IMG/VR virus record: IMGVR_UViG_3300025011_000026
Origin: a virus
Lineage: Duplodnaviria > Heunggongvirae > Uroviricota > Caudoviricetes
DNA: 64,000 nucleotides
Strand: one strand, 5' to 3'
Shown here piece by piece: positions 40,904-60,339 of this stretch. The position numbers and the translations under genes were made by a program. Positions within the stretch are counted from its first letter, which is position 1. Every line of letters begins with the position of its first letter. The notes below the pieces were generated by a model. That model made no database searches. It saw only the letters and a list, made by a program, of their open reading frames with translations, and was not told where the DNA came from.

Positions 40904-42463
40904 TTGAATAAATTAAAAAATAAAATTGTTGTAGTTAGTGGTTTTAGTGCTTGTGTTGATGGGGATACAGAATATTTCAATGGTACGAGATGGATAAAAA
41001 TAAAAGATTATTCTGAAGGGGATGAGGTTTTACAATATCATTCAGATGGGACTACAAATTTAACATATCCACAAAAATATATCAAAGAACCTTGTAAAGA
41101 AATGTGGTATTTTAGAACGAAACATGGATTAAATCAATGTTTAACAGATGAACATGAAGTTTATTACATTACATCAAAAAATAATTTATATCATAAGACG
41201 TTTAAGGAGATAAGAGAGCAACATAATTCTAATAAAAATGGTTTTAGTGGTAAATTCATAACTACTTTCAATTATGGAGGGAAAGGAATTGAATTAACTG
41301 ACAATGAGATAAAATTAATGTGTGCTGTAATTTGTGATTCTTCTTTTCCAAACGGTACAAATAAATGTTTTTTTAATCTTAAAAAAGATAGAAAAAAAAA
41401 TGCTTTAAGAAAATTACTTAAAGAAATGAATTACGAATGGGAGGAAAAAGAATATGACTCAATGAAGGGGTATACAAGATTTTTCTTAAATGCTCCAAGA
41501 AAAGAAAAGGAATTTTCCCCATACTGGTATAATTGTAATCAGCACCAACTCAAAATAATTTGTGACAACATTATTCAATGGGATGGTAGTACATCCAGTG
41601 ATAGTATAAGATTTTTCTCTACTTCAAAAGATACTGCTGATTTTATTCAATTTGCTTTTTCGGCTTGTGGAATAAGAGCGAATTTATTAGAAAATGATAG
41701 GAGGGGAAGAATAAAGTATAATGAGACGACAAATAAAGAATATATTACTAAATCTATTGATTATGTGATAAATATTTGCAATAGTAAATTATTATCATTA
41801 ATAAGAGATAAAAATAAAAAAATCGAATTTAGCAAATACATAACTAAAGATGGATTTAAATATTGCTTTACAGTACCTAGTGGAATTTTAGTTTTAAGAA
41901 GAGATGGTTGTATATTTATAACTGGCAATTGTGGTAAAGACTCAATTCAAAAATACATATCTGATAATTACAATTACCAAATGGTGATATCACATTCATC
42001 TCGTCCTATGCGTCCAAATGAAGATGAAGGTAATCCATATTATTTCATTACAAGAAAACAATTTGAAGATATGATTAAACAAAATGAATTTATTGAGTGT
42101 AGGAAATATAATACACTTGTAAATAATGTGAATGATGTTTGGTATTATGGAGTTAGTAAAAATTCTATTGACTTAACAAAAAATAATTACATAGTAGTTC
42201 TGGATATTTTGGGATTAATAGAGATTAAAAAATATTTCAAAGATAATGTAATTTCATTCTTTATTGATGTTGATGAACCAATTAGAAAACAACGTGCTAT
42301 TAATCGACAAGGATTTGACCCCACAGAATGGGATAGGCGTTATCAAGATGATATTAAAAGCTTTTCTCAAGAAGTAATAAATAAAGAAGTTGATTATATT
42401 ATTGAGAATTATGATTTTGATAAATGTGTAAGTGAAATTCTTAGTAAGATTGGAGAGATTTAA
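40904..42463 (+). CDS. guanylate-kinase-like (d)NMP kinase interrupted by an intein
   Basis: Exteins join to VVVSGFSA|CGKDS (P-loop GxxxxGK). Downstream HSSRPMRPNEDEGNPYYFITRKQFEDMIKQNEFIE matches the guanylate kinase TTRxPRxGExDGxDYxF core. Confidence 0.7.
   Translation: MNKLKNKIVVVSGFSACVDGDTEYFNGTRWIKIKDYSEGDEVLQYHSDGTTNLTYPQKYIKEPCKEMWYFRTKHGLNQCLTDEHEVYYITSKNNLYHKTFKEIREQHNSNKNGFSGKFITTFNYGGKGIELTDNEIKLMCAVICDSSFPNGTNKCFFNLKKDRKKNALRKLLKEMNYEWEEKEYDSMKGYTRFFLNAPRKEKEFSPYWYNCNQHQLKIICDNIIQWDGSTSSDSIRFFSTSKDTADFIQFAFSACGIRANLLENDRRGRIKYNETTNKEYITKSIDYVINICNSKLLSLIRDKNKKIEFSKYITKDGFKYCFTVPSGILVLRRDGCIFITGNCGKDSIQKYISDNYNYQMVISHSSRPMRPNEDEGNPYYFITRKQFEDMIKQNEFIECRKYNTLVNNVNDVWYYGVSKNSIDLTKNNYIVVLDILGLIEIKKYFKDNVISFFIDVDEPIRKQRAINRQGFDPTEWDRRYQDDIKSFSQEVINKEVDYIIENYDFDKCVSEILSKIGEI
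40952..41929 (+). mobile_element. intein (326 aa) with LAGLIDADG-like endonuclease domain
   Basis: Starts with Cys1 (CVDGDT, block A). Block B is CLTDEH. Central KLMCAVICDSSF and FIQFAFSACGIRANL look like LAGLIDADG motifs. It ends ...FITGN, followed by +1 Cys. Residues 17-342 of the host ORF. Confidence 0.65.
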
Positions 42464-44087: not shown

Positions 44088-44867
44088 CTACTTCTTTTTA
44101 ACAATTTCAGTAACTTTTAATTCAATAAAATACTCCTGATGATCTTCACTCAAAAACATAGACAATCTCTGTAGAAAGTTTTCTAATTCCAAGGTATTAA
44201 ATTTCCTCTTAATATTAATCAAAGCATTATTCACTTCAATTTCTTCTACTTTTTTTATAGAAGGAGTTGAAGTAAAATTTTTATCATTAATTTCTTTAAC
44301 ATCTTTATCATTTACCTGAGAAACATTAATATGTCTATTATATGCACGTTTCTTATGATCATCTTGTTCATTAATTTTAGGAAATCCTTTAGCAATTCTT
44401 TCATTGTTCAAATAATCTATGGCAGATTGACCAATAAAAACATTATTACCTTTCTTACTTTTTGCAACTTGCATTGTTAGAAAGTAAGAATTAAGAGAAA
44501 CTGATGAACATTTCCATTGTTTTACAATATCATGATTAGTATGAAGTCTTCTCAATTCTGCTAATGCTTTCTGACTATTTTCAAAATCCAGTGCTTCAAA
44601 TTCTGATTTAGGTGGAATTTCACCTGATTTAATCTTTTCTAGAAGTTCATTCATTTTCATTTCTCCAATCGTTGTTGAGTGAATTACTCCAGCGTTCATG
44701 ACAATTTTTCTTTCAATACCTGTTAAACTCTCAGAAGGGGTTCTTACTGATTCATGTTTTCTCAATCTTAATGCACGACCATGAATTCCATTTCCTGTTC
44801 TCTTTTGCTGTCGAATATCATCTTTTAACATTCTTTCAATTTCTGATTCTTGTTCATAGTCGAACAT
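44088..44867 (-). CDS. hypothetical protein downstream of the origin
   Basis: 259-aa ORF, the last gene of the minus-strand maintenance block. Basic N-terminus, no recognised motif. Confidence 0.55.
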   Translation of the reverse strand: MFDYEQESEIERMLKDDIRQQKRTGNGIHGRALRLRKHESVRTPSESLTGIERKIVMNAGVIHSTTIGEMKMNELLEKIKSGEIPPKSEFEALDFENSQKALAELRRLHTNHDIVKQWKCSSVSLNSYFLTMQVAKSKKGNNVFIGQSAIDYLNNERIAKGFPKINEQDDHKKRAYNRHINVSQVNDKDVKEINDKNFTSTPSIKKVEEIEVNNALINIKRKFNTLELENFLQRLSMFLSEDHQEYFIELKVTEIVKKK

Positions 44868-44946
44868 TCTGCACTAACTTTCTTTTTGCTACATAATTAT
44901 TGATGATACCATATCATGATGCTTATCTACTATCGGATAATTTTAC

Positions 44947-44956
44947 CTGTGGATAA
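44947..44956 (-). promoter_or_regulatory. DnaA box (perfect TTATCCACAG)
   Basis: The plus strand reads CTGTGGATAA. Confidence 0.6.
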
Positions 44957-45020
44957 CTTTCTAATAAAATGGTAATAATAGTAAGATATATACACCTTGT
45001 ATTAGTTTCTTTTGTGGGTC

Positions 45021-45124
45021 TAAAGTTTAGACTGGTCGGGTATAAAACTTAGACGGGTCTAGAATTTAGACAGGTGTTTTCTGTGGATAAGCATCATATA
45101 ACCAGTATAGAATTTAGACAGGTT
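45021..45124. repeat. iterons (4 direct repeats, core TTAGACnGGT)
   Basis: AGTTTAGACTGGTC, AACTTAGACGGGTC, TAGAATTTAGACAGGTG and TAGAATTTAGACAGGTT, with cores starting at 45027, 45049, 45066 and 45114. A variant TTCGACAGGTTGA lies at 45944-45956. Confidence 0.65.
45081..45090 (-). promoter_or_regulatory. DnaA box (perfect TTATCCACAG)
   Basis: The plus strand reads CTGTGGATAA, between iterons 3 and 4. Confidence 0.6.
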
Positions 45125-45130
45125 GACATT

Positions 45131-45523
45131 TTAACTATCTCTTTCTTCCATCATTTTTTCATATAATTTGTCTGCACTAATAACTCCTTCTTTAAAAGAT
45201 TGTTCAATAATTTCTGTTTCTTCTGAGCATAGAAAAATCATCTTTTTGATGTTGCCATTTACACCAGCACTTGCAGTCCACACATAACCATTCTCTTCTA
45301 GCCAATTCAATCCATTTATACAAGATTGGCGAGATAAACCAGTAAGTTTAATTAATTGAGAAATGCTGATCCAATCACCTGTTTTAGCAAATCCCCATGT
45401 TTTTCTAATCATTAAGAGATAAACCTTTAAAGCTGAGAAATTACTAATTCTAGGTATCAATTCATCAAATACAATATTAGGAACCTCCATATAATTTTTC
45501 TGTGGTTTAGGTAATCTGAACAT
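45131..45523 (-). CDS. replication initiator, phage_rep_O-like winged-helix protein
   Basis: YMEVPNIVFDELIPRISNFSALKVYLLMIRKTWGFAKTGDWISISQLIKLTGLSRQSCINGLNWLEENGY matches the N-terminal domain pattern of lambda-O-type and plasmid replication proteins. ATG 45523 has SD AAGGA. The TTG at 45559 in the track has none. Confidence 0.65.
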   Translation of the reverse strand: MFRLPKPQKNYMEVPNIVFDELIPRISNFSALKVYLLMIRKTWGFAKTGDWISISQLIKLTGLSRQSCINGLNWLEENGYVWTASAGVNGNIKKMIFLCSEETEIIEQSFKEGVISADKLYEKMMEERDS

Positions 45524-45570
45524 GTTTTCATCCTTCTTTCTAGCAATAAAAACAGGCAATGCTAGAAGAG

Positions 45571-45598
45571 TTGACGAATTTCTAAAAAATGATATAAT
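45571..45598 (+). promoter_or_regulatory. near-consensus promoter facing away from rep
   Basis: TTGACG, 16 nt, TATAAT. Confidence 0.55.
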
Positions 45599-45604
45599 GG
45601 GTAT

Positions 45605-45680
45605 ATAGAAATTTCATCTAGTCTTCTGGGTCTCCTAAAGCGATGTGTCGGCAAAACTCTACGCTTTAGGAGATTTTTCA
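45605..45680 (+). ncRNA. candidate small RNA 1 (promoter + terminator unit, no ORF)
   Basis: Perfect 12-bp stem TCTCCTAAAGCG/CGCTTTAGGAGA (45631-45673), then TTTTT. About 75 nt from the predicted start. Confidence 0.35.
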
Positions 45681-45793
45681 TTTGCTTATTTAATTTAAGT
45701 TAGTTACAACACAATAAAAAAGTTGATAGCATGTTCCATTACACACTACCAACTTTTGACATTCTTTTACTAAATTATTACCAAAATATAGAC

Positions 45794-45821
45794 TTGATTT
45801 TTTTCTATATCTGACTATAAT
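45794..45821 (+). promoter_or_regulatory. promoter
   Basis: TTGATT, 16 nt, TATAAT. Confidence 0.45.
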
Positions 45822-45827
45822 TAATAT

Positions 45828-45920
45828 CAAGAGCGTCAAGTAAATGTTGTGTTGGAACATTACTTGATCAAAAGCCTGTCAAGTCCTTGCAAGACCTGAT
45901 GGGCTTCGCTTATTTTATTG
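45828..45920 (+). ncRNA. candidate small RNA 2 (two hairpins, T-rich end)
   Basis: Hairpin TCAAGTAAATGTT/AACATTACTTGA at 45836-45867. Long imperfect hairpin at 45872-45906, followed by CGCTTATTTTATT. Confidence 0.3.
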
Positions 45921-45982
45921 AGTTAATTTGTTAGAGTTATATATTCGACAGGTTGATACATTTCTCCTTTAAAGAATTTAAA

Positions 45983-45992
45983 TTATCCACAG
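45983..45992 (+). promoter_or_regulatory. DnaA box (perfect TTATCCACAG)
   Basis: Read directly. A one-mismatch box TTATCCCCA follows at 46012-46020. Confidence 0.6.
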
Positions 45993-45997
45993 GTATT

Positions 45998-46026
45998 ATT
46001 ATACATGAAAGTTATCCCCATGTGTA
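45998..46026 (-). promoter_or_regulatory. possible minus-strand promoter for the rep leader
   Basis: The minus strand reads TACACA, 17 nt, TATAAT. The -35 is weak. Confidence 0.3.
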
Positions 46027-46071
46027 TAGAAATTTTGACAAAATATTTAATCGTTAGGCCGTACAACAAAA

Positions 46072-46110
46072 TCGAAAAAATAAACACTATCCAAAATTAA
46101 CTGGATAGTG
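46072..46110 (-). terminator. rho-independent terminator after parR
   Basis: 9-bp stem CACTATCCA/TGGATAGTG, followed on the minus strand by TTTATTTTTT. Confidence 0.6.
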
Positions 46111-46143
46111 CTTTTGTATTTCAATAAAATTCAATGAAATTAA

Positions 46144-46515
46144 TTATTCAGACATGAGATTGTTCATAGTTTTAAGAAAAATACTATCTTTCTTTTTATC
46201 AGAGACTTCAGGAACCATCTCAACCAGCTCATCTCTATCCACAATAACTTCATTTTTCTTTCTCGTTTTCTTCGGAACTTTTACACTATTTACAGAAACC
46301 TTAATATTGCCTGACACAATGTTATCTGTAATTTTTTCATTAAATTTATCCAATTTAAGTTTTTTTGGATAATAATCCATGTAAAATTTTAAACAAGTTT
46401 TAACCAACTGTGAATTAGAAATTCCTTGTTCTTCAATTTGATTAACATAATCAATTAGAATTTTGTCATTTTTTGAACTAAGGTTTGTGCCAACATATTT
46501 TCTCAGGCTACCCAT
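46144..46515 (-). CDS. parR: ParR-like ribbon-helix-helix centromere-binding protein
   Basis: Starts 2 nt after the parM stop. The N-terminus KYVGTNLSSKNDKILIDYVNQIEEQG fits a beta-strand plus two helices. The tail is basic. Confidence 0.5.
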   Translation of the reverse strand: MGSLRKYVGTNLSSKNDKILIDYVNQIEEQGISNSQLVKTCLKFYMDYYPKKLKLDKFNEKITDNIVSGNIKVSVNSVKVPKKTRKKNEVIVDRDELVEMVPEVSDKKKDSIFLKTMNNLMSE

Positions 46516-46517
46516 AA

Positions 46518-47495
46518 TTACTCATCCATATCCCAATATTGTTTTCCTCCATCAAGATATGCTAAAGCATTAGTCAATTGAGGATGTTCACTTGATAACT
46601 TTGCTGTATTATCAAGTTTAATATTAAGATAAGGTAACAATACTTCGGCAGGGCCTCCCATGACACAAGTTTCTAATGCCTGTTGTAAATCAAATGTTTT
46701 TTCCAAAGAAGAAATTACATTATCGATATAATCTATAAGAATTTCATCTTTTGTCCTATCTAGATCATAACTTTGCTTTCGCAATGTAATCTCTGACCGT
46801 TTAAGATATTGCAATAATTCATGAGGTTTAAATCTAGTTCCATTCTTAGAATTAAAAGTTGTTGTAATTTGCTCTAGTATTTGATCAAAACCAAATTGTG
46901 TATAACTTACTTTAGAATCTAAAATTACTTCAGTATTTTCAGGATTAATATCGTCACCTTTACGCCATAATGAAGCATCTAAAGTTCCACCACCAAAATC
47001 TAAAACCAATAGGGGATATTCATATCTTCCTTTTTGAGAATCAGTTATTCCAGATTGAATGTAGCAAATAGAATCAGTTATTTCAATATTGATATTACCT
47101 CTATCATCACCGATATTAATAGTTTGTGCTTTCATAGTTTTTAATTTTTCAAGATATGCATTTGCATGTTGTTTGTAATAACCAGCCGGAGTACCAACTA
47201 CTAATTTAACTTTAATATCTTTACATTCTGGAAAACTTAAAGCAATAGAAGTTAATGTACATAAATCAAAATGTGTTGTGGTGTATTTATCTGGATTGAT
47301 ATAAATTTTTCCTTCTGGATCTCCTACAAGATGACTTAAGCCATCTTTTTTAACTAAGTAAGTATTACTTTTTAGTAGACCATCGCCCTCAGTATTAAAC
47401 TTAATTCTTGCTCTCAATACTATCCCTTTACTGGTTTTGTAGTACGAATTTCCTGCATCAAGACCTAAAATTTCTTCATCGTTCATCTCATTCAT
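46518..47495 (-). CDS. parM: ParM/StbA-type actin-like segregation ATPase
   Basis: Phosphate-1 LGLDAGNSYYKT and phosphate-2 LVLDFGGGTLDASL motifs. 325 aa. Confidence 0.8.
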   Translation of the reverse strand: MNEMNDEEILGLDAGNSYYKTSKGIVLRARIKFNTEGDGLLKSNTYLVKKDGLSHLVGDPEGKIYINPDKYTTTHFDLCTLTSIALSFPECKDIKVKLVVGTPAGYYKQHANAYLEKLKTMKAQTINIGDDRGNINIEITDSICYIQSGITDSQKGRYEYPLLVLDFGGGTLDASLWRKGDDINPENTEVILDSKVSYTQFGFDQILEQITTTFNSKNGTRFKPHELLQYLKRSEITLRKQSYDLDRTKDEILIDYIDNVISSLEKTFDLQQALETCVMGGPAEVLLPYLNIKLDNTAKLSSEHPQLTNALAYLDGGKQYWDMDE

Positions 47496-58620: not shown

Positions 58621-60339
58621 CTACTTATAAATTCCCCAAACCAATTTTTCACCAGTTTCAGGATGTTTACCAGCCGATTTTTGATTGCCACTGCAACATC
58701 TAGATATGCCATTCGCAGACATATTATATTTTATTGAAGCATCCAACATACTCTCAAAAATTTCATTTGTTGTTATACAAATTACCTTTTTCTTACAAGA
58801 ATCATAATTTTCTGCTTTAGCATTTTTTAAACTATATTCTATTTCATCTTCTGTTTTCAAAAGATATTTTTCATAATACATCCAAACCAATGGCTCACCA
58901 GTTATCGACTTACCTGCTGATTTATGCTTACCTTTACAACATGCAGATATATTTGGTCTTATTGATTCTCTGCCATTGAATGAAGCTTCATATATAGAAT
59001 CAAATATTTCTCCAGTTGTAATGCAAATCACTTTCTCGCATATTTCTTCTTTTGGGTTATAAGAACACCATCCTAATTCTGTTCCTTTTTTAAGATAACT
59101 CCTTATCGCACTACTACTCAAATTTAAATTTTCCCCTATTTTAACTGTGCTTTTAATTCCTTCATTCCATAAACTACATGCTGTTTTAACTAAATTTCTA
59201 CACCCTGCTTCTTGCACTCTTAACCAATCTATATCTTCTTCAGTAAAATTTAATAACTCTGGCAATTTACTATTCATAATACTGTCCCTTATCCACCCTA
59301 TTTCAGACGTTCTGCAATCAATTATTAAATAATTTTTAATTTTATTACTCCTAGCCAACCATTCCTTATCAAAATCATTGATTTGTATATCATCTAATGA
59401 ATCCCACTTACTTTTCGTTTCTTCGTAGTGTTGAATTCCTTGACACTCTATCACACCATTTATTTTATTTATGTATATGTCATATCTATAATTTTCACAC
59501 CATTTAAAAGTAGTTTTTGATAATTGAATGATAAATGTTTCGTGTAATTGTTCTAAAACATTTATCATAACCTTTTCGGGGATGCTCACACCATCTCCAC
59601 ATCTGTTGCAACCGAAACCGTGATTTACTAAGTTAGAAATTTTAATCATTTTTTCATAACCACAATCAGGACATTTAGTTAATACATATTCACCTGACCC
59701 AAAAGAATATTTATGTGCATCATTTATATTCACAAAGAAATGTGTTAAATGAGGATGTGTGACAAAAATAGTATTGCACATATCACAATCTAGACTACCC
59801 TTTTGTCCTCCTGTAAAAGAACTTATATGTTTTTGTTCAGGTTTGTGTTCTGGATTATCTAAACAATTAAACCAATATCCTTTTTTATCTATGCCTTGTG
59901 AAGCAAAACTTACATCTTTGGGAGATAATTTATTACCATCTTTATCAACATTCAGTTCGCAATTCCAACGATTAATTATTATATCTGCTTCATTTTTATT
60001 TTTATTATCATAGCACCATTTGTAAAAAGATGTCCATTGTTTATCTCCTGCGTTTGCACATCTTAAACAATAATATTTTCCATCTTCTCTAACTTGTGAA
60101 GTATAGTCAGACCACCTTATATTTTCTAATAATTTTCCACATCCATCACATTCAATATTTACAAATACTCTGGCCTTATCTTGTAGATCCTCTACTTTAA
60201 CTTTTATTATTGCACCTCGTATATATTTTTCTTCGCCATTCTTATTTATGTATTTTGGTATCTCATATCCTTTTGCTTCATACCATTTAATATTTTTACT
60301 ACCTAACCCAACCTCAGCCTCTTTTGTTATCAATCCCAT
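58621..60339 (-). mobile_element. Zn-ribbon / PD-(D/E)XK-like / NUMOD-like endonuclease gene (free-standing homing-endonuclease-like)
   Basis: Several treble-clef-like Cys pairs (CDGC ... CLRC, CDMC, CPDC ... CNRC). Putative nuclease core YRYDIYINKINGVIECQGIQHY. Two C-terminal repeats VICITTxEIF(D/E)S ... CC(K/S)G ... KSAGK ... LVW. Confidence 0.45.

What the first reader, a model, noticed from the sequence alone, without database searches (positions are those of the whole stretch)
45571..45920. Two ORF-less promoter-terminator units opposite rep: candidate antisense copy-number control RNAs
**Seen in sequence**
- Unit 1 has TTGACG-16-TATAAT (45571-45598).
  - A perfect 12-bp hairpin plus T5 (45631-45678) follows.
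- Unit 2 has TTGATT-16-TATAAT (45794-45821).
  - Two hairpins and a T-rich end follow, running to about 45920.
- Both units are on the plus strand, in the region upstream of minus-strand rep.
- The rep SD and ATG are at 45523-45535.

**Inference**
- If rep is transcribed from about 45990 or by read-through from parMR, both RNAs would be fully complementary to its long leader.
- That arrangement is known from antisense-RNA control of Gram-positive theta and rolling-circle plasmids, such as the RNAIII/CopR type.
Basis: inference. Interest (0 to 1): 0.55.

Follow-up and report, generated by a model that had tools for sequence, protein, structure and literature searches.

The report
Two antisense RNA genes upstream of rep
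The gap in front of a phage-plasmid's replication-initiator gene holds two conserved small RNA genes on the opposite strand, with a conserved terminator on the gene's own strand between them. This is the layout of the RNA-based copy-number brakes known from Gram-positive plasmids, here found in an unstudied λ-O-type replicon.

Summary
Both promoter-hairpin-T-run units sit at the stated coordinates.

Comparison with about 40 related metagenomic loci shows they are real, structured small-RNA genes on the plus strand.

- **Unit 1 (about 45605-45678)**
  - It occurs once per locus in 32-34 loci, down to 56% Rep identity, always with a strong promoter.
  - Its hairpin arms differ between loci but keep pairing: 94% of cells paired, 11 of 12 pairs with compensatory changes.
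- **Unit 2 (about 45828-45921)**
  - It occurs only in the closer half of the family.
- **Strand assignment:** G·U counts place U1 and U2 on the plus strand and T- on the rep strand.
- **rep promoter:** No locus has a good rep-strand promoter between rep and Unit 1. The best candidate sits among DnaA boxes at 46026-45998.

My best reading is that rep has a leader of about 470 nt. U2 triggers attenuation at T-, as in pT181/pIP501. U1 is a second countertranscript placed like λ oop/pO.

No transcript data exist, so the mechanism is inferred. The elements match no Rfam family. I rate this a new variant of a known kind, of moderate interest.

The parts
45571..45598 (+). Promoter of Unit 1 (P_U1): TTGACG-16-TATAAT with a TGn extension
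   Evidence: It scores 11/12, the best in 5 kb. An equivalent plus-strand promoter is present in 34/34 related loci. It scores at least 10 in 32 of them, and 24 carry TGn.
45605..45678 (+). Unit 1 RNA (U1), about 74 nt. It has a conserved single-stranded CU-rich 5' tail and a terminator hairpin at 45630-45674 with a 19-nt loop holding GTCGGCAAAAC, then U5. The start site is inferred from the -10.
   Evidence: - Fold.
- Covariance model R1 finds exactly one copy per locus in 32 loci and only this one in the window (57.8 bits).
- 94.4% of cells are paired and 11/12 pairs show compensatory change.
- The plus strand folds better in 24/30 loci, with 66 G·U pairs against 19.
45712..45757 (-). T-: an intrinsic terminator on the rep strand (17-bp stem at 45757-45718, U-run continuing to about 45712). 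Proposed attenuator in the rep leader.
   Evidence: - Detection and fold: (z = -4.3).
- The minus strand folds better in 17/17 loci, with 38 G·U pairs against 3.
- 99.5% of cells are paired and 5/12 pairs are compensatory on an unfitted MAFFT alignment.
- It occurs only where Unit 2 occurs.
45794..45821 (+). Promoter of Unit 2 (P_U2): TTGATT-16-TATAAT, inside a strongly conserved block
45828..45921 (+). Unit 2 RNA (U2), about 90 nt. Hairpin 1 is at 45835-45868. Hairpin 2 (the terminator) is at 45872-45906 with loop CUUGCAA, followed by a U-rich tail.
   Evidence: - Fold.
- Hairpin 1 folds better on the plus strand in 15/15 loci (G·U 20 against 3). Hairpin 2 does so in 11/14 (G·U 36 against 11).
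- 12/14 pairs of hairpin 2 show compensatory change.
45944..45953 (+). A single iteron-like site (TTCGACAGGT) inside the conserved ATATTCGACAGGTTGATACA. Probably a Rep operator on the leader DNA.
   Evidence: In distant loci the same element directly follows the U1 terminator.
45983..46020 (+). Two DnaA boxes: TTATCCACA at 45983-45991 and TTATCCCCA at 46012-46020
   Evidence: They are conserved in relatives.
45998..46026 (-). Candidate promoter of the rep leader (TACACA-17-TATAAT), with the start site near 45991
   Evidence: A TATAAT or TATACT next to a DnaA box is present on this strand in all 15 close loci that could be displayed. Its function is inferred.
46082..46113 (.). Bidirectional terminator after parR. 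It separates parMR from the leader promoter.
45540..45565 (.). Inverted repeat CTAGCA...TGCTAG between the rep SD and P_U1. Possibly an operator or a leader hairpin.
   Evidence: Read from the sequence. Conserved in the alignment.
45131..45523 (-). rep: a 130-aa initiator with a λ-O-like winged helix. SD at 45530-45536.
   Evidence: Pfam PF04492, E = 3.7e-9. PHROG 'replication initiation O-like'. 30 homologues of 56-95% identity.
44948..45123 (.). Probable origin downstream of rep. It has four direct iterons (45027, 45049, 45066, 45114) and two DnaA boxes (44948, 45082).

Best explanation
The parR-rep gap of this phage-plasmid replicon encodes two countertranscripts, that is, small RNAs made from the strand opposite rep. 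They limit production of the λ-O-like initiator Rep.

**Shown**
- U1, U2 and T- are conserved, strand-specific RNA hairpin elements.
- U1 and U2 have conserved promoters.

**Inferred**
- rep is transcribed from the DnaA-box promoter at about 46026-45998. This gives a leader of about 470 nt that carries the complements of U2 and U1, with T- between them.
- U2 pairs with the nascent leader. That occupies the segment which would otherwise pair with the 5' arm of T-. T- then forms and transcription stops before rep. This is countertranscript-driven attenuation, as in pT181, pIP501 and pAMβ1.
- Transcripts that escape T- meet U1. U1 is made from a strong promoter that fires against them just upstream of rep.
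- U1 could act in three ways: by forming a duplex with the leader, by pairing its CU-rich 5' tail with the rep SD, and by collision between polymerases, as at λ pO/pR.
- Because both RNAs are made in proportion to template number, they would set prophage-plasmid copy number and incompatibility.
For: **The units are real RNA genes**
- P_U1 is present in 34/34 loci.
- The U1 hairpin has 94.4% of cells paired, 11/12 pairs with compensatory change, and a covariation score of 0.766. Shuffles give 0.29 (0/500 reach the observed value) and slid controls give at most 0.22.
- Strand asymmetry is consistent:

| Element | Strand that folds better | G·U pairs, plus : minus |
|---|---|---|
| U1 hairpin | plus in 24/30 | 66 : 19 |
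| U2 hairpin 1 | plus in 15/15 | 20 : 3 |
| U2 hairpin 2 | plus in 11/14 | 36 : 11 |
| T- | minus in 17/17 | 3 : 38 |

**A long leader or read-through transcript is likely**
- No minus-strand promoter scoring at least 10/12 lies between the rep ATG and U1 in any of 34 loci.
- A -10 element next to DnaA boxes is conserved upstream of U2.
- In distant loci a small ORF in the same direction as rep ends just before the U1 complement, with no terminator between them.

**Attenuation at T-**
- T- is a canonical terminator (17-bp stem plus U6) on the rep strand. It lies downstream of the U2 target and upstream of rep.
- T- and U2 always occur together. About 17-18 loci have both and none has only one.
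- The best pairing partner of the T- 5' arm, searched over 228 nt of upstream leader, falls inside the U2-complementary stretch in 17/17 loci.
- That pairing averages -15.2 kcal/mol, against -9.8 ± 2.8 for shuffled partners.

**Behaviour expected of a specificity determinant**
- Loci with 98-99% identical Rep carry unrelated U1 stems.
- Loci with 75-77% identical Rep carry the window's U1 almost unchanged.

**The loop motif tolerates inversion**
- The 11-mer GTCGGCAAAAC and its exact reverse complement both occur on the U1 strand in different loci.
- This fits a sense/antisense loop-loop contact, where either partner can carry either sequence.

**Pairing with the RBS**
- The U1 5' tail is complementary to the rep SD of its own locus (mean z = -1.8; cognate -14.3 against non-cognate -11.8 kcal/mol).

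**Precedent**
- Attenuation control in pT181, pIP501 and pAMβ1 is described in PMC2879508. The λ pO/oop arrangement is described in PMC3985674.
Against: - There are no transcript data. The leader promoter is only a consensus match, and such matches are as common as in shuffled sequence here.
- In minimum-energy folds T- forms whether or not the U2 target is blocked. The proposed antiterminator (-7.5 to -16.8 kcal/mol) is weaker than T- itself (-12.6 to -24.3). A switch would therefore have to be kinetic.
- Cognate pairing is only modestly better than non-cognate pairing (-15.2 against -12.9). The 17 loci are also not independent.
- Blocking the U1 target gave no clear switch at the rep RBS in the folds.
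- The complementarity between the U1 tail and the SD could be a by-product of inverted Rep-binding (iteron-like) DNA sites.
- Iteron replicons can control copy number without any RNA.
- A weak or activator-dependent rep promoter overlapping P_U1 cannot be excluded. One candidate is 45617-45589 at 9/12.
Confidence: 0.55

Rival explanations
1. rep has its own short-leader promoter overlapping P_U1, so neither RNA is antisense to rep mRNA. U1 would then act by competing for the promoter region, or as a diffusible small RNA that pairs with the rep SD or other targets. U2 would be unrelated to rep.
For: - A 9/12 minus-strand match at 45617-45589 overlaps the -10 of P_U1.
- In some distant loci a TTGACA-17-TAATAG can be read by eye on the rep strand, overlapping P_U1 (sequences).
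- Inverted iteron-like repeats around P_U1 look like a classical Rep autoregulation operator.
- The U1 tail is complementary to the SD even without any overlap of transcripts.
Against: - No minus-strand promoter scoring at least 10/12 lies between rep and U1 in 0/34 loci. The few 9/12 hits are not conserved in position.
- This reading leaves the conserved rep-strand terminator T-, and its strict pairing with U2, unexplained.
- Tolerance of loop inversion argues against a fixed trans target or a protein partner for the U1 loop.
Confidence: 0.17
2. U2 and the minus-strand RNA that ends at T- form a self-contained sense/antisense cassette, such as a type I toxin-antitoxin or another stability module. 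It would sit next to the replicon but would not be the rep leader.
For: - The transcription is convergent and overlapping, with a strong terminator on the sense RNA.
- A 56-aa ORF at 45860-45690 starts with a hydrophobic stretch followed by RYRKK, and its start is covered by U2.
- The module is optional within the family.
Against: - The ORF has no SD and runs through T- and past its U-run.
- Its start codon is missing or displaced in L001, L013, L022, L003 and L007, and it is truncated in L002.
- Its apparent conservation coincides with the P_U2 DNA block.
- No other conserved small ORF exists on either strand.
- If T- were a full stop, rep would be left without a detectable promoter.
Confidence: 0.1
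3. The hairpins act at the DNA level, as protein-binding palindromes (Rep or DnaA operators), cruciforms or single-strand initiation signals. Or the short RNAs prime or activate replication, as first proposed for λ oop and as shown for RNA-based prophage origins in mycobacteriophages.
For: - The gap is full of iteron-like sites and DnaA boxes.
- The loop motif works in both orientations, as a double-stranded DNA site would.
- Noncoding RNAs serve as replication initiators in some extrachromosomal prophages (PMC7157519).
Against: - The strong and consistent G·U versus A·C asymmetry shows selection on one RNA strand for each element. The favoured strand is opposite for T-.
- Every unit has a conserved promoter upstream and a U-run downstream on the favoured strand.
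- A Rep protein, four iterons and DnaA boxes downstream of rep already make a complete protein-primed-type origin.
- U1 and U2 are terminated short RNAs that point away from that origin.
Confidence: 0.06

Closest known systems
Countertranscript-driven transcriptional attenuation of rep in pT181, pIP501 (RNAIII) and pAMβ1
   Same: - A small antisense RNA gene lies inside a long rep leader.
- An intrinsic terminator on the rep strand lies downstream of the antisense target and upstream of the rep start.
- A leader segment within the target can pair with the 5' arm of the terminator.
- The host range is Gram-positive (low GC).
- The mechanism is summarised in PMC2879508.
   Different: - The initiator is a 130-aa λ-O-like winged-helix protein with iterons and DnaA boxes, not RepC or RepR.
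- No Rfam ctRNA family matches.
- No CopR-like repressor gene is present.
- The terminator lies about 190 nt before the rep start, not immediately before it.
- A second, independent countertranscript (U1) lies between the attenuator and rep.
- The replicon belongs to a large phage, not a small plasmid.
Bacteriophage λ oop RNA and its promoter pO
   Same: - A short terminated RNA (77 nt in λ, about 74 nt here) starts just upstream of an O-type initiator gene and runs against the transcription that enters that gene.
- DnaA and transcription into the origin are part of the picture in λ (PMC3985674).
- In distant relatives of this window the RNA lies between an upstream co-directional ORF and rep, as oop lies between cII and O.
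   Different: - No sequence or structure homology was detected.
- oop overlaps the 3' end of cII, which is its known target. U1 does not overlap the upstream ORF.
- In λ the origin lies inside O. Here the iterons lie downstream of rep.
- The effect of λ oop on O expression is reported as negligible (PMC3985674).
Antisense RNAs that block rep translation (pMV158 RNAII, ColE2 RNAI, R1 CopA) and their YUNR recognition loops (from my own knowledge, not tested here)
   Same: - These are short hairpin RNAs whose large recognition loops carry a U-turn-type motif. Here the motifs are UUUG in GUUUUGCCGAC and CUUG in the U2 loop.
- Stems diverge quickly and act as incompatibility determinants.
- U1 is complementary to the rep SD.
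   Different: - U1 is not encoded opposite the RBS itself.
- No leader peptide or pseudoknot activator is evident.
- The recognition loop is found flipped between the two partners in different loci.

Membership tests
pT181/pIP501/pAMβ1-type countertranscript attenuation | A small RNA gene on the strand opposite rep, lying within the region upstream of rep, with its own promoter and terminator | tested here: met
   U1 and U2 have conserved promoters, compensatory stem changes and plus-strand G·U bias.
pT181/pIP501/pAMβ1-type countertranscript attenuation | The rep mRNA starts upstream of the antisense gene, so the leader is complementary to it | tested here: inconclusive
   A candidate promoter lies at 46026-45998. 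No alternative rep-strand promoter lies near rep in 34 loci. No transcript data exist.
pT181/pIP501/pAMβ1-type countertranscript attenuation | A rho-independent terminator in the leader, downstream of the antisense target and before the rep start | tested here: met
   T- at 45757-45718 plus U6 is conserved and specific to the minus strand.
pT181/pIP501/pAMβ1-type countertranscript attenuation | Mutually exclusive pairing: a segment of the antisense target (the preemptor) pairs with the 5' arm of the terminator | tested here: inconclusive
   The best partner lies in the U2 target in 17/17 loci and pairs better than shuffles. But the minimum-energy folds keep T- in both states.
pT181/pIP501/pAMβ1-type countertranscript attenuation | Homology of the RNA or of Rep to the known families (Rfam ctRNA models; RepC or RepR) | tested here: not met
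   No Rfam hit at E ≤ 10 apart from noise. Rep belongs to PF04492, Phage_rep_O.
pT181/pIP501/pAMβ1-type countertranscript attenuation | Antisense RNA increases premature termination and lowers copy number | not testable with these tools
   This needs in vitro transcription and copy-number assays.
λ oop/pO | A short terminated RNA starting next to the start of an O-type initiator gene and running the opposite way | tested here: met
   P_U1 lies 48-75 nt upstream of the rep ATG and the RNA is about 74 nt. Rep is O-like.
λ oop/pO | The RNA overlaps, and targets, the 3' end of the upstream cII-like gene | tested here: not met
   In the window no ORF lies under U1. In distant loci the upstream ORF ends 10-40 nt beyond the CCTGTCGAA site that follows the U1 terminator.
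λ oop/pO | Sequence or structure homology to oop | not tested
   No Rfam family matched the region. I did not check whether Rfam holds an oop model, and I made no direct comparison with the λ sequence.
Type I toxin-antitoxin | A conserved small hydrophobic ORF with an RBS on the sense RNA, overlapped by the antisense RNA | tested here: not met
   The 56-aa ORF lacks an SD, its start is not conserved, and it runs through T-.

The most novel reading that the evidence does not exclude
The two RNAs and T- may form a modular, freely recombining copy-control and incompatibility cassette specific to λ-O-type iteron replicons of phage-plasmids. This reading has three unusual features:
- The recognition loop can be flipped between the countertranscript and its target without loss of function.
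- Cassettes are swapped between nearly identical Rep genes.
- The U1 5' tail doubles as an anti-SD, because the rep RBS is embedded in a Rep-binding (iteron-like) sequence. One short motif would then be read both as DNA by Rep and as RNA by U1.

If so, RNA control and iteron control would be coupled in a single replicon.
Probability: 0.2. Interest if true: 0.65.

Novelty: new variant of a known kind. Interest (0 to 1): 0.45.

Why it matters
- Phage-plasmids are common but almost unstudied in Firmicutes. How they set prophage copy number and avoid incompatibility is largely unknown.
- If this reading is right, a whole metagenomic family of large phages uses RNA countertranscripts layered on an iteron/DnaA, λ-O-type origin. 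That combination is unusual, because iteron replicons are normally thought to be protein-controlled.
- The work gives two new RNA families, one with a covariance model. It also gives a natural series of swapped and inverted variants that make specificity and incompatibility directly testable.
- The cassette could also serve as a compact, orthogonal copy-control part for vectors in Clostridia and Bacilli.

Tried and rejected
- **Rfam scan** of 44800-46300 at E ≤ 10 gave only noise (RatA at 22 bits against a gathering score of 49, plus miRNA and snoRNA hits).
- **blastn** of the region against cultured phages and plasmids found nothing. A Rep protein search there found only O-like N-terminal domains of about 40% identity in proteobacterial phages. 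No annotated relative exists.
- **Type I toxin reading** of the 56-aa ORF at 45860-45690 was rejected. A 12-aa ORF (MYQPVEYITLTN) behind a GGAGA at about 45955 was also rejected: it is destroyed in L002, and its conservation is that of the iteron-like DNA site.
- **Thermodynamic switch tests.** Folding the leader with and without the U1 or U2 target blocked gave no clean switch, because T- and the RBS hairpins form either way. The attenuation model therefore rests on positional and comparative evidence, not on minimum-energy folds.
- **Cognate versus non-cognate antiterminator pairing** gave only a weak signal.
- **A rep promoter between U1 and T-** (45679-45717), or overlapping P_U1, was sought and nothing conserved was found (and reading by eye).
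I redid it at E ≤ 1e-5 to get A5.
- **MAFFT register errors.** The MAFFT alignment of the lower stem of U2 hairpin 1 is out of register in some rows. This lowers its paired percentage to 63%, although single-sequence folds show the hairpin in all 15 loci.
Full report
**Setting**

The finding lies in a 584-bp gap on the minus-strand side of a plasmid-type maintenance module, inside what is otherwise a large phage genome.
- The phage genes include a PolIII-α-like polymerase, a DnaB helicase and a large terminase.
- The module reads, on the minus strand: ParM/Alp-like actin (46518-47495), a ParR-like ORF (46144-46515), the gap, then rep.
- rep (ATG at 45523, stop at 45131) is a 130-aa winged-helix protein of the λ O family (Pfam PF04492, E = 3.7e-9; PHROG 'replication initiation O-like').
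- Downstream of rep lie four direct iterons (TTAGACAGGT-like at 45027, 45049, 45066, 45114) and two perfect DnaA boxes (44948, 45082). An ORF of 259 aa with no family match follows.
- Three of the five exact TTATCCACA boxes of the whole 64-kb window lie within this 1-kb stretch.
- The replicon has no relative among cultured phages or plasmids beyond a roughly 40% match to O-like N-terminal domains.
- It does have 30 protein relatives (56-95% identity) and more than 50 loci in metagenomes, IMG/VR and MAGs labelled Bacilli or Clostridium. Contigs reach 272 kb.

**Checking the observation**

- Unit 1 has TTGACG-16-TATAAT at 45571-45598 with a TGn extension. At 11/12 it is the best match in 5 kb.
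- Its hairpin has 12 Watson-Crick pairs plus a G·U pair (45630-45674), a 19-nt loop and T5.
- Unit 2 has TTGATT-16-TATAAT at 45794-45821, hairpins at 45835-45868 and 45872-45906, and a U-rich tail.
- Both RNAs fold better than all 200 shuffles (z about -3.4).
- Promoter-like hexamers alone mean nothing in this AT-rich DNA: 34 were found and 34.1 expected. The case therefore has to rest on comparison with relatives.
I call it T-.

**Comparative evidence that these are RNA genes**

I extracted the 750 nt upstream of rep from every related locus, giving 41 distinct sequences.

*Unit 1*
- It is present in essentially all loci, down to 56% Rep identity.
- A plus-strand promoter occurs in 34/34 loci. 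It scores at least 10 in 32 of them, and 24 have TGn.
- The -10 ends a nearly constant 31-37 nt before the hairpin in most loci, and the hairpin is followed by a T-run.
- A covariance model built on the hairpin finds exactly one copy per locus in 32 loci, and only the known copy in the 64-kb window.
- On the resulting alignment 94.4% of cells pair and 11 of 12 pairs show changes on both sides.
- The covariation score is 0.766, against 0.29 for shuffles (0/500 reach it) and at most 0.22 for slid controls.

*Unit 2 and T-*
- They occur only in the closer half of the family (about 17-18 loci) and always together.
- On plain MAFFT alignments T- pairs in 99.5% of cells, with 5/12 compensatory pairs.
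- The terminator hairpin of U2 has 12/14 pairs with compensatory change.

*Strand test*

I folded each distinct hairpin on both strands, which needs no alignment. A G·U pair on one strand becomes an A·C mismatch on the other, so this shows which strand is under selection.

| Element | Strand that folds better | G·U pairs, plus : minus |
|---|---|---|
| U1 hairpin | plus in 24/30 | 66 : 19 |
| U2 hairpin 1 | plus in 15/15 | 20 : 3 |
| U2 hairpin 2 | plus in 11/14 | 36 : 11 |
| T- | minus in 17/17 | 3 : 38 |

The elements are therefore selected as RNA. U1 and U2 are read from the plus strand, and T- from the rep strand.

**Where rep transcription starts**

- No locus has a minus-strand promoter scoring at least 10/12 between the rep ATG and the U1 hairpin. 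The few 9/12 hits are not conserved in position.
- In the window the only good minus-strand promoter of the gap is TACACA-17-TATAAT at 46026-45998, set between two DnaA boxes (45983, 46012).
- All 15 close relatives that could be displayed keep a TATAAT or TATACT next to a DnaA box at the equivalent place.
- A bidirectional terminator (46082-46113) closes parMR, so read-through from parMR is unlikely.
- In distant relatives that have only U1, a small ORF in the same direction as rep ends just upstream of the U1 complement, with no rep-strand terminator in between.
- Both arrangements imply a rep transcript that crosses the U1 region. In the window's group it also crosses the U2 region and T-.
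- This is inference. A weak or activated promoter overlapping P_U1 cannot be ruled out, for example 45617-45589 at 9/12.

**Proposed mechanism**

*U2 and T-*
- With a leader starting near 45991, the order along the rep strand is:
  1. iteron-like site (45944)
  2. U2 target
  3. P_U2 block
  4. T-
  5. U1 target
  6. inverted repeat
  7. SD and rep
- A conserved intrinsic terminator inside a leader, just past the target of a countertranscript, is the hallmark of the attenuation control of pT181, pIP501 and pAMβ1 (PMC2879508).
- Such a system needs a leader segment that competes for the 5' arm of the terminator. The U2 5' region (GUCAAGUAAAUGUUGUGUUGG) resembles the T- 5' arm (GUCAAAAGUUGGUAGUGUGU), so the leader's complement of U2 can pair with that arm.
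- The best partner of the T- 5' arm, searched across 228 nt of upstream leader, falls within the U2-complementary stretch in 17/17 loci.
- That pairing is about two standard deviations better than shuffles (-15.2 against -9.8 ± 2.8 kcal/mol).
- The partial transcript that stops before the T- 3' arm adopts this pairing in its minimum-energy fold.
- Weaknesses: the full-length minimum-energy fold keeps T- in either state, cognate pairs beat non-cognate pairs only modestly, and the loci are related to one another. I put U2-driven attenuation at roughly even odds.

*U1*
- Its geometry is that of λ oop/pO. It is a short terminated RNA fired from just upstream of an O-type initiator gene, against the incoming transcription (PMC3985674).
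- It could act by forming a duplex with the leader, by polymerase collision, or by its conserved CU-rich 5' tail.
- That tail is complementary to the SD of its own locus (mean z = -1.8; cognate -14.3 against non-cognate -11.8 kcal/mol).
- In distant loci the SD sits in an iteron-like GACAGG sequence and the tail carries the inverted CCTGTC. This complementarity may therefore reflect Rep operator sites in the DNA rather than RNA pairing, or both.

**Two observations that point to a specificity determinant**

- Loci with 98-99% identical Rep (L001, L007, L010) carry unrelated U1 stems. Loci with 75-77% identical Rep (L004, L021) carry the window's U1 almost unchanged. The RNA cassette is therefore exchanged independently of the protein, as incompatibility determinants are.
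- The conserved loop 11-mer GTCGGCAAAAC (window, L002, L004, L019, L021) appears as its exact reverse complement GTTTTGCCGAC on the same strand in L023, L035 and L061. L015 and L019 share a stem but have inverted loops.
- A loop that can be flipped yet stays conserved is what one expects if the functional unit is the contact between two complementary RNAs, where either partner can carry either sequence. It is hard to reconcile with a fixed trans target or a protein partner for U1.
- A double-stranded DNA site would also tolerate inversion. However, the G·U asymmetry and the constant position of promoter and T-run argue for RNA.

**Rivals**

- *Short-leader rep promoter, with U1 acting by promoter competition or in trans (about 0.17).* It does not explain T- or the coupling of U2 with T-.
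- *Self-contained sense/antisense cassette such as a type I toxin-antitoxin (about 0.10).* The only candidate ORF (56 aa, 45860-45690) has no SD, has a non-conserved start, and runs through the terminator.
- *DNA-level elements or primer RNAs (about 0.06).* The strand asymmetry and the complete Rep/iteron/DnaA origin downstream of rep count against this. RNA-initiated prophage origins do exist in mycobacteriophages (PMC7157519).
- *Chance.* This is excluded by conservation.

**Comparison with known systems and novelty**

- Functionally the closest systems are the Gram-positive attenuation systems (pT181, pIP501, pAMβ1) for U2 and T-, and λ oop/pO for U1.
- Membership in those families is not supported. 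No Rfam ctRNA model matches, Rep belongs to a different family, there is no CopR-like gene, and U1 does not overlap an upstream gene as oop does.
- What differs from all of them:
  - the combination with an iteron/DnaA, λ-O-type origin in a large phage
  - two independent countertranscripts in series with an attenuator between them
  - the modular presence or absence of the U2/T- unit
  - the loop inversion
- I rate it a new variant of a known kind.
- The existence of the RNA genes is close to certain (about 0.9). Their role as negative regulators of rep is likely (about 0.6). The specific attenuation step is plausible (about 0.45-0.5).
- Interest is moderate (0.45). It is not surprising in principle, but these are well-defined new RNA families that are directly testable, in an unstudied class of phage-plasmids.

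Noticed in passing
window 45643-45661; L015:2336-2401 and L019:2339-2406 (minus strand of each locus): The conserved 11-mer in the U1 loop occurs as GTCGGCAAAAC in some loci and as its exact reverse complement in others, on the same transcribed strand. L015 and L019 share the stem but have inverted loops. This is a small inversion between the hairpin arms that has been tolerated repeatedly.
   Followed up: partly
L001, L007, L010 compared with L004 and L021 (U1 regions): Loci with 98-99% identical Rep carry unrelated U1 hairpins, while loci with 75-77% identical Rep carry the window's U1. The RNA cassette and the rep gene have been reshuffled by recombination.
   Followed up: partly
window 45564-45584 and 45606-45627: An imperfect inverted repeat of about 21 bp (AGAAGAGTTGACGAATTTCTA / TAGAAATTTCATCTAGTCTTCT) brackets the -10 of P_U1. 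Each arm contains a GAAATTTC-like palindrome. It may be an operator for an unidentified repressor, or the source of the conserved U1 5' tail.
   Followed up: no
window 45944-46026: A lone iteron-like site and two DnaA boxes overlap the candidate leader promoter. Transcription from here would run through rep into the iteron origin, with no terminator between 45131 and 44868. This recalls DnaA-modulated 'transcriptional activation' of oriλ.
   Followed up: no
L033, L037, L039, L043-L047, L050 (7-51 nt upstream of the rep start, rep strand): In distant relatives a 10-18-bp hairpin made of inverted iteron-like sequences (CCTGTCTA...TAGACAGG) is followed by a U-run. It sits immediately before the rep start codon and contains the SD. 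It could be a Rep operator, an SD-sequestering hairpin or a second type of attenuator.
   Followed up: partly
L039, L043, L045 (small ORF about 200-320 nt upstream of rep), with longer versions in L037, L044, L047: A conserved small ORF in the same direction as rep (for example MIVERDLAGFFKWIVVDDELTILDPQYLYEFVTYFFG) lies upstream of U1 in the distant branch, in the position that cII holds in λ. Its function is unknown.
   Followed up: no
window 40904-42463 (+): In this 519-aa ORF the guanylate-kinase domain (Pfam PF00625) starts only at residue 343, at profile position 13. The N-terminus reads ...VVVSGFSA|CVDGDT... and the junction reads ...FITGN|CGKDS. This looks like an intein of about 325 aa inserted in the P-loop of a phage nucleotide kinase.
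   Followed up: partly
window 58621-60339 (-): A 572-aa ORF on the minus strand has HNH and homing-endonuclease PHROG matches. It lies among otherwise plus-strand late genes.
   Followed up: no
window 44088-44867 (-): A 259-aa ORF lies directly downstream of the iterons and in the same direction as rep. It has no Pfam or PHROG match. By position it may be a replication accessory protein such as a helicase loader.
   Followed up: no
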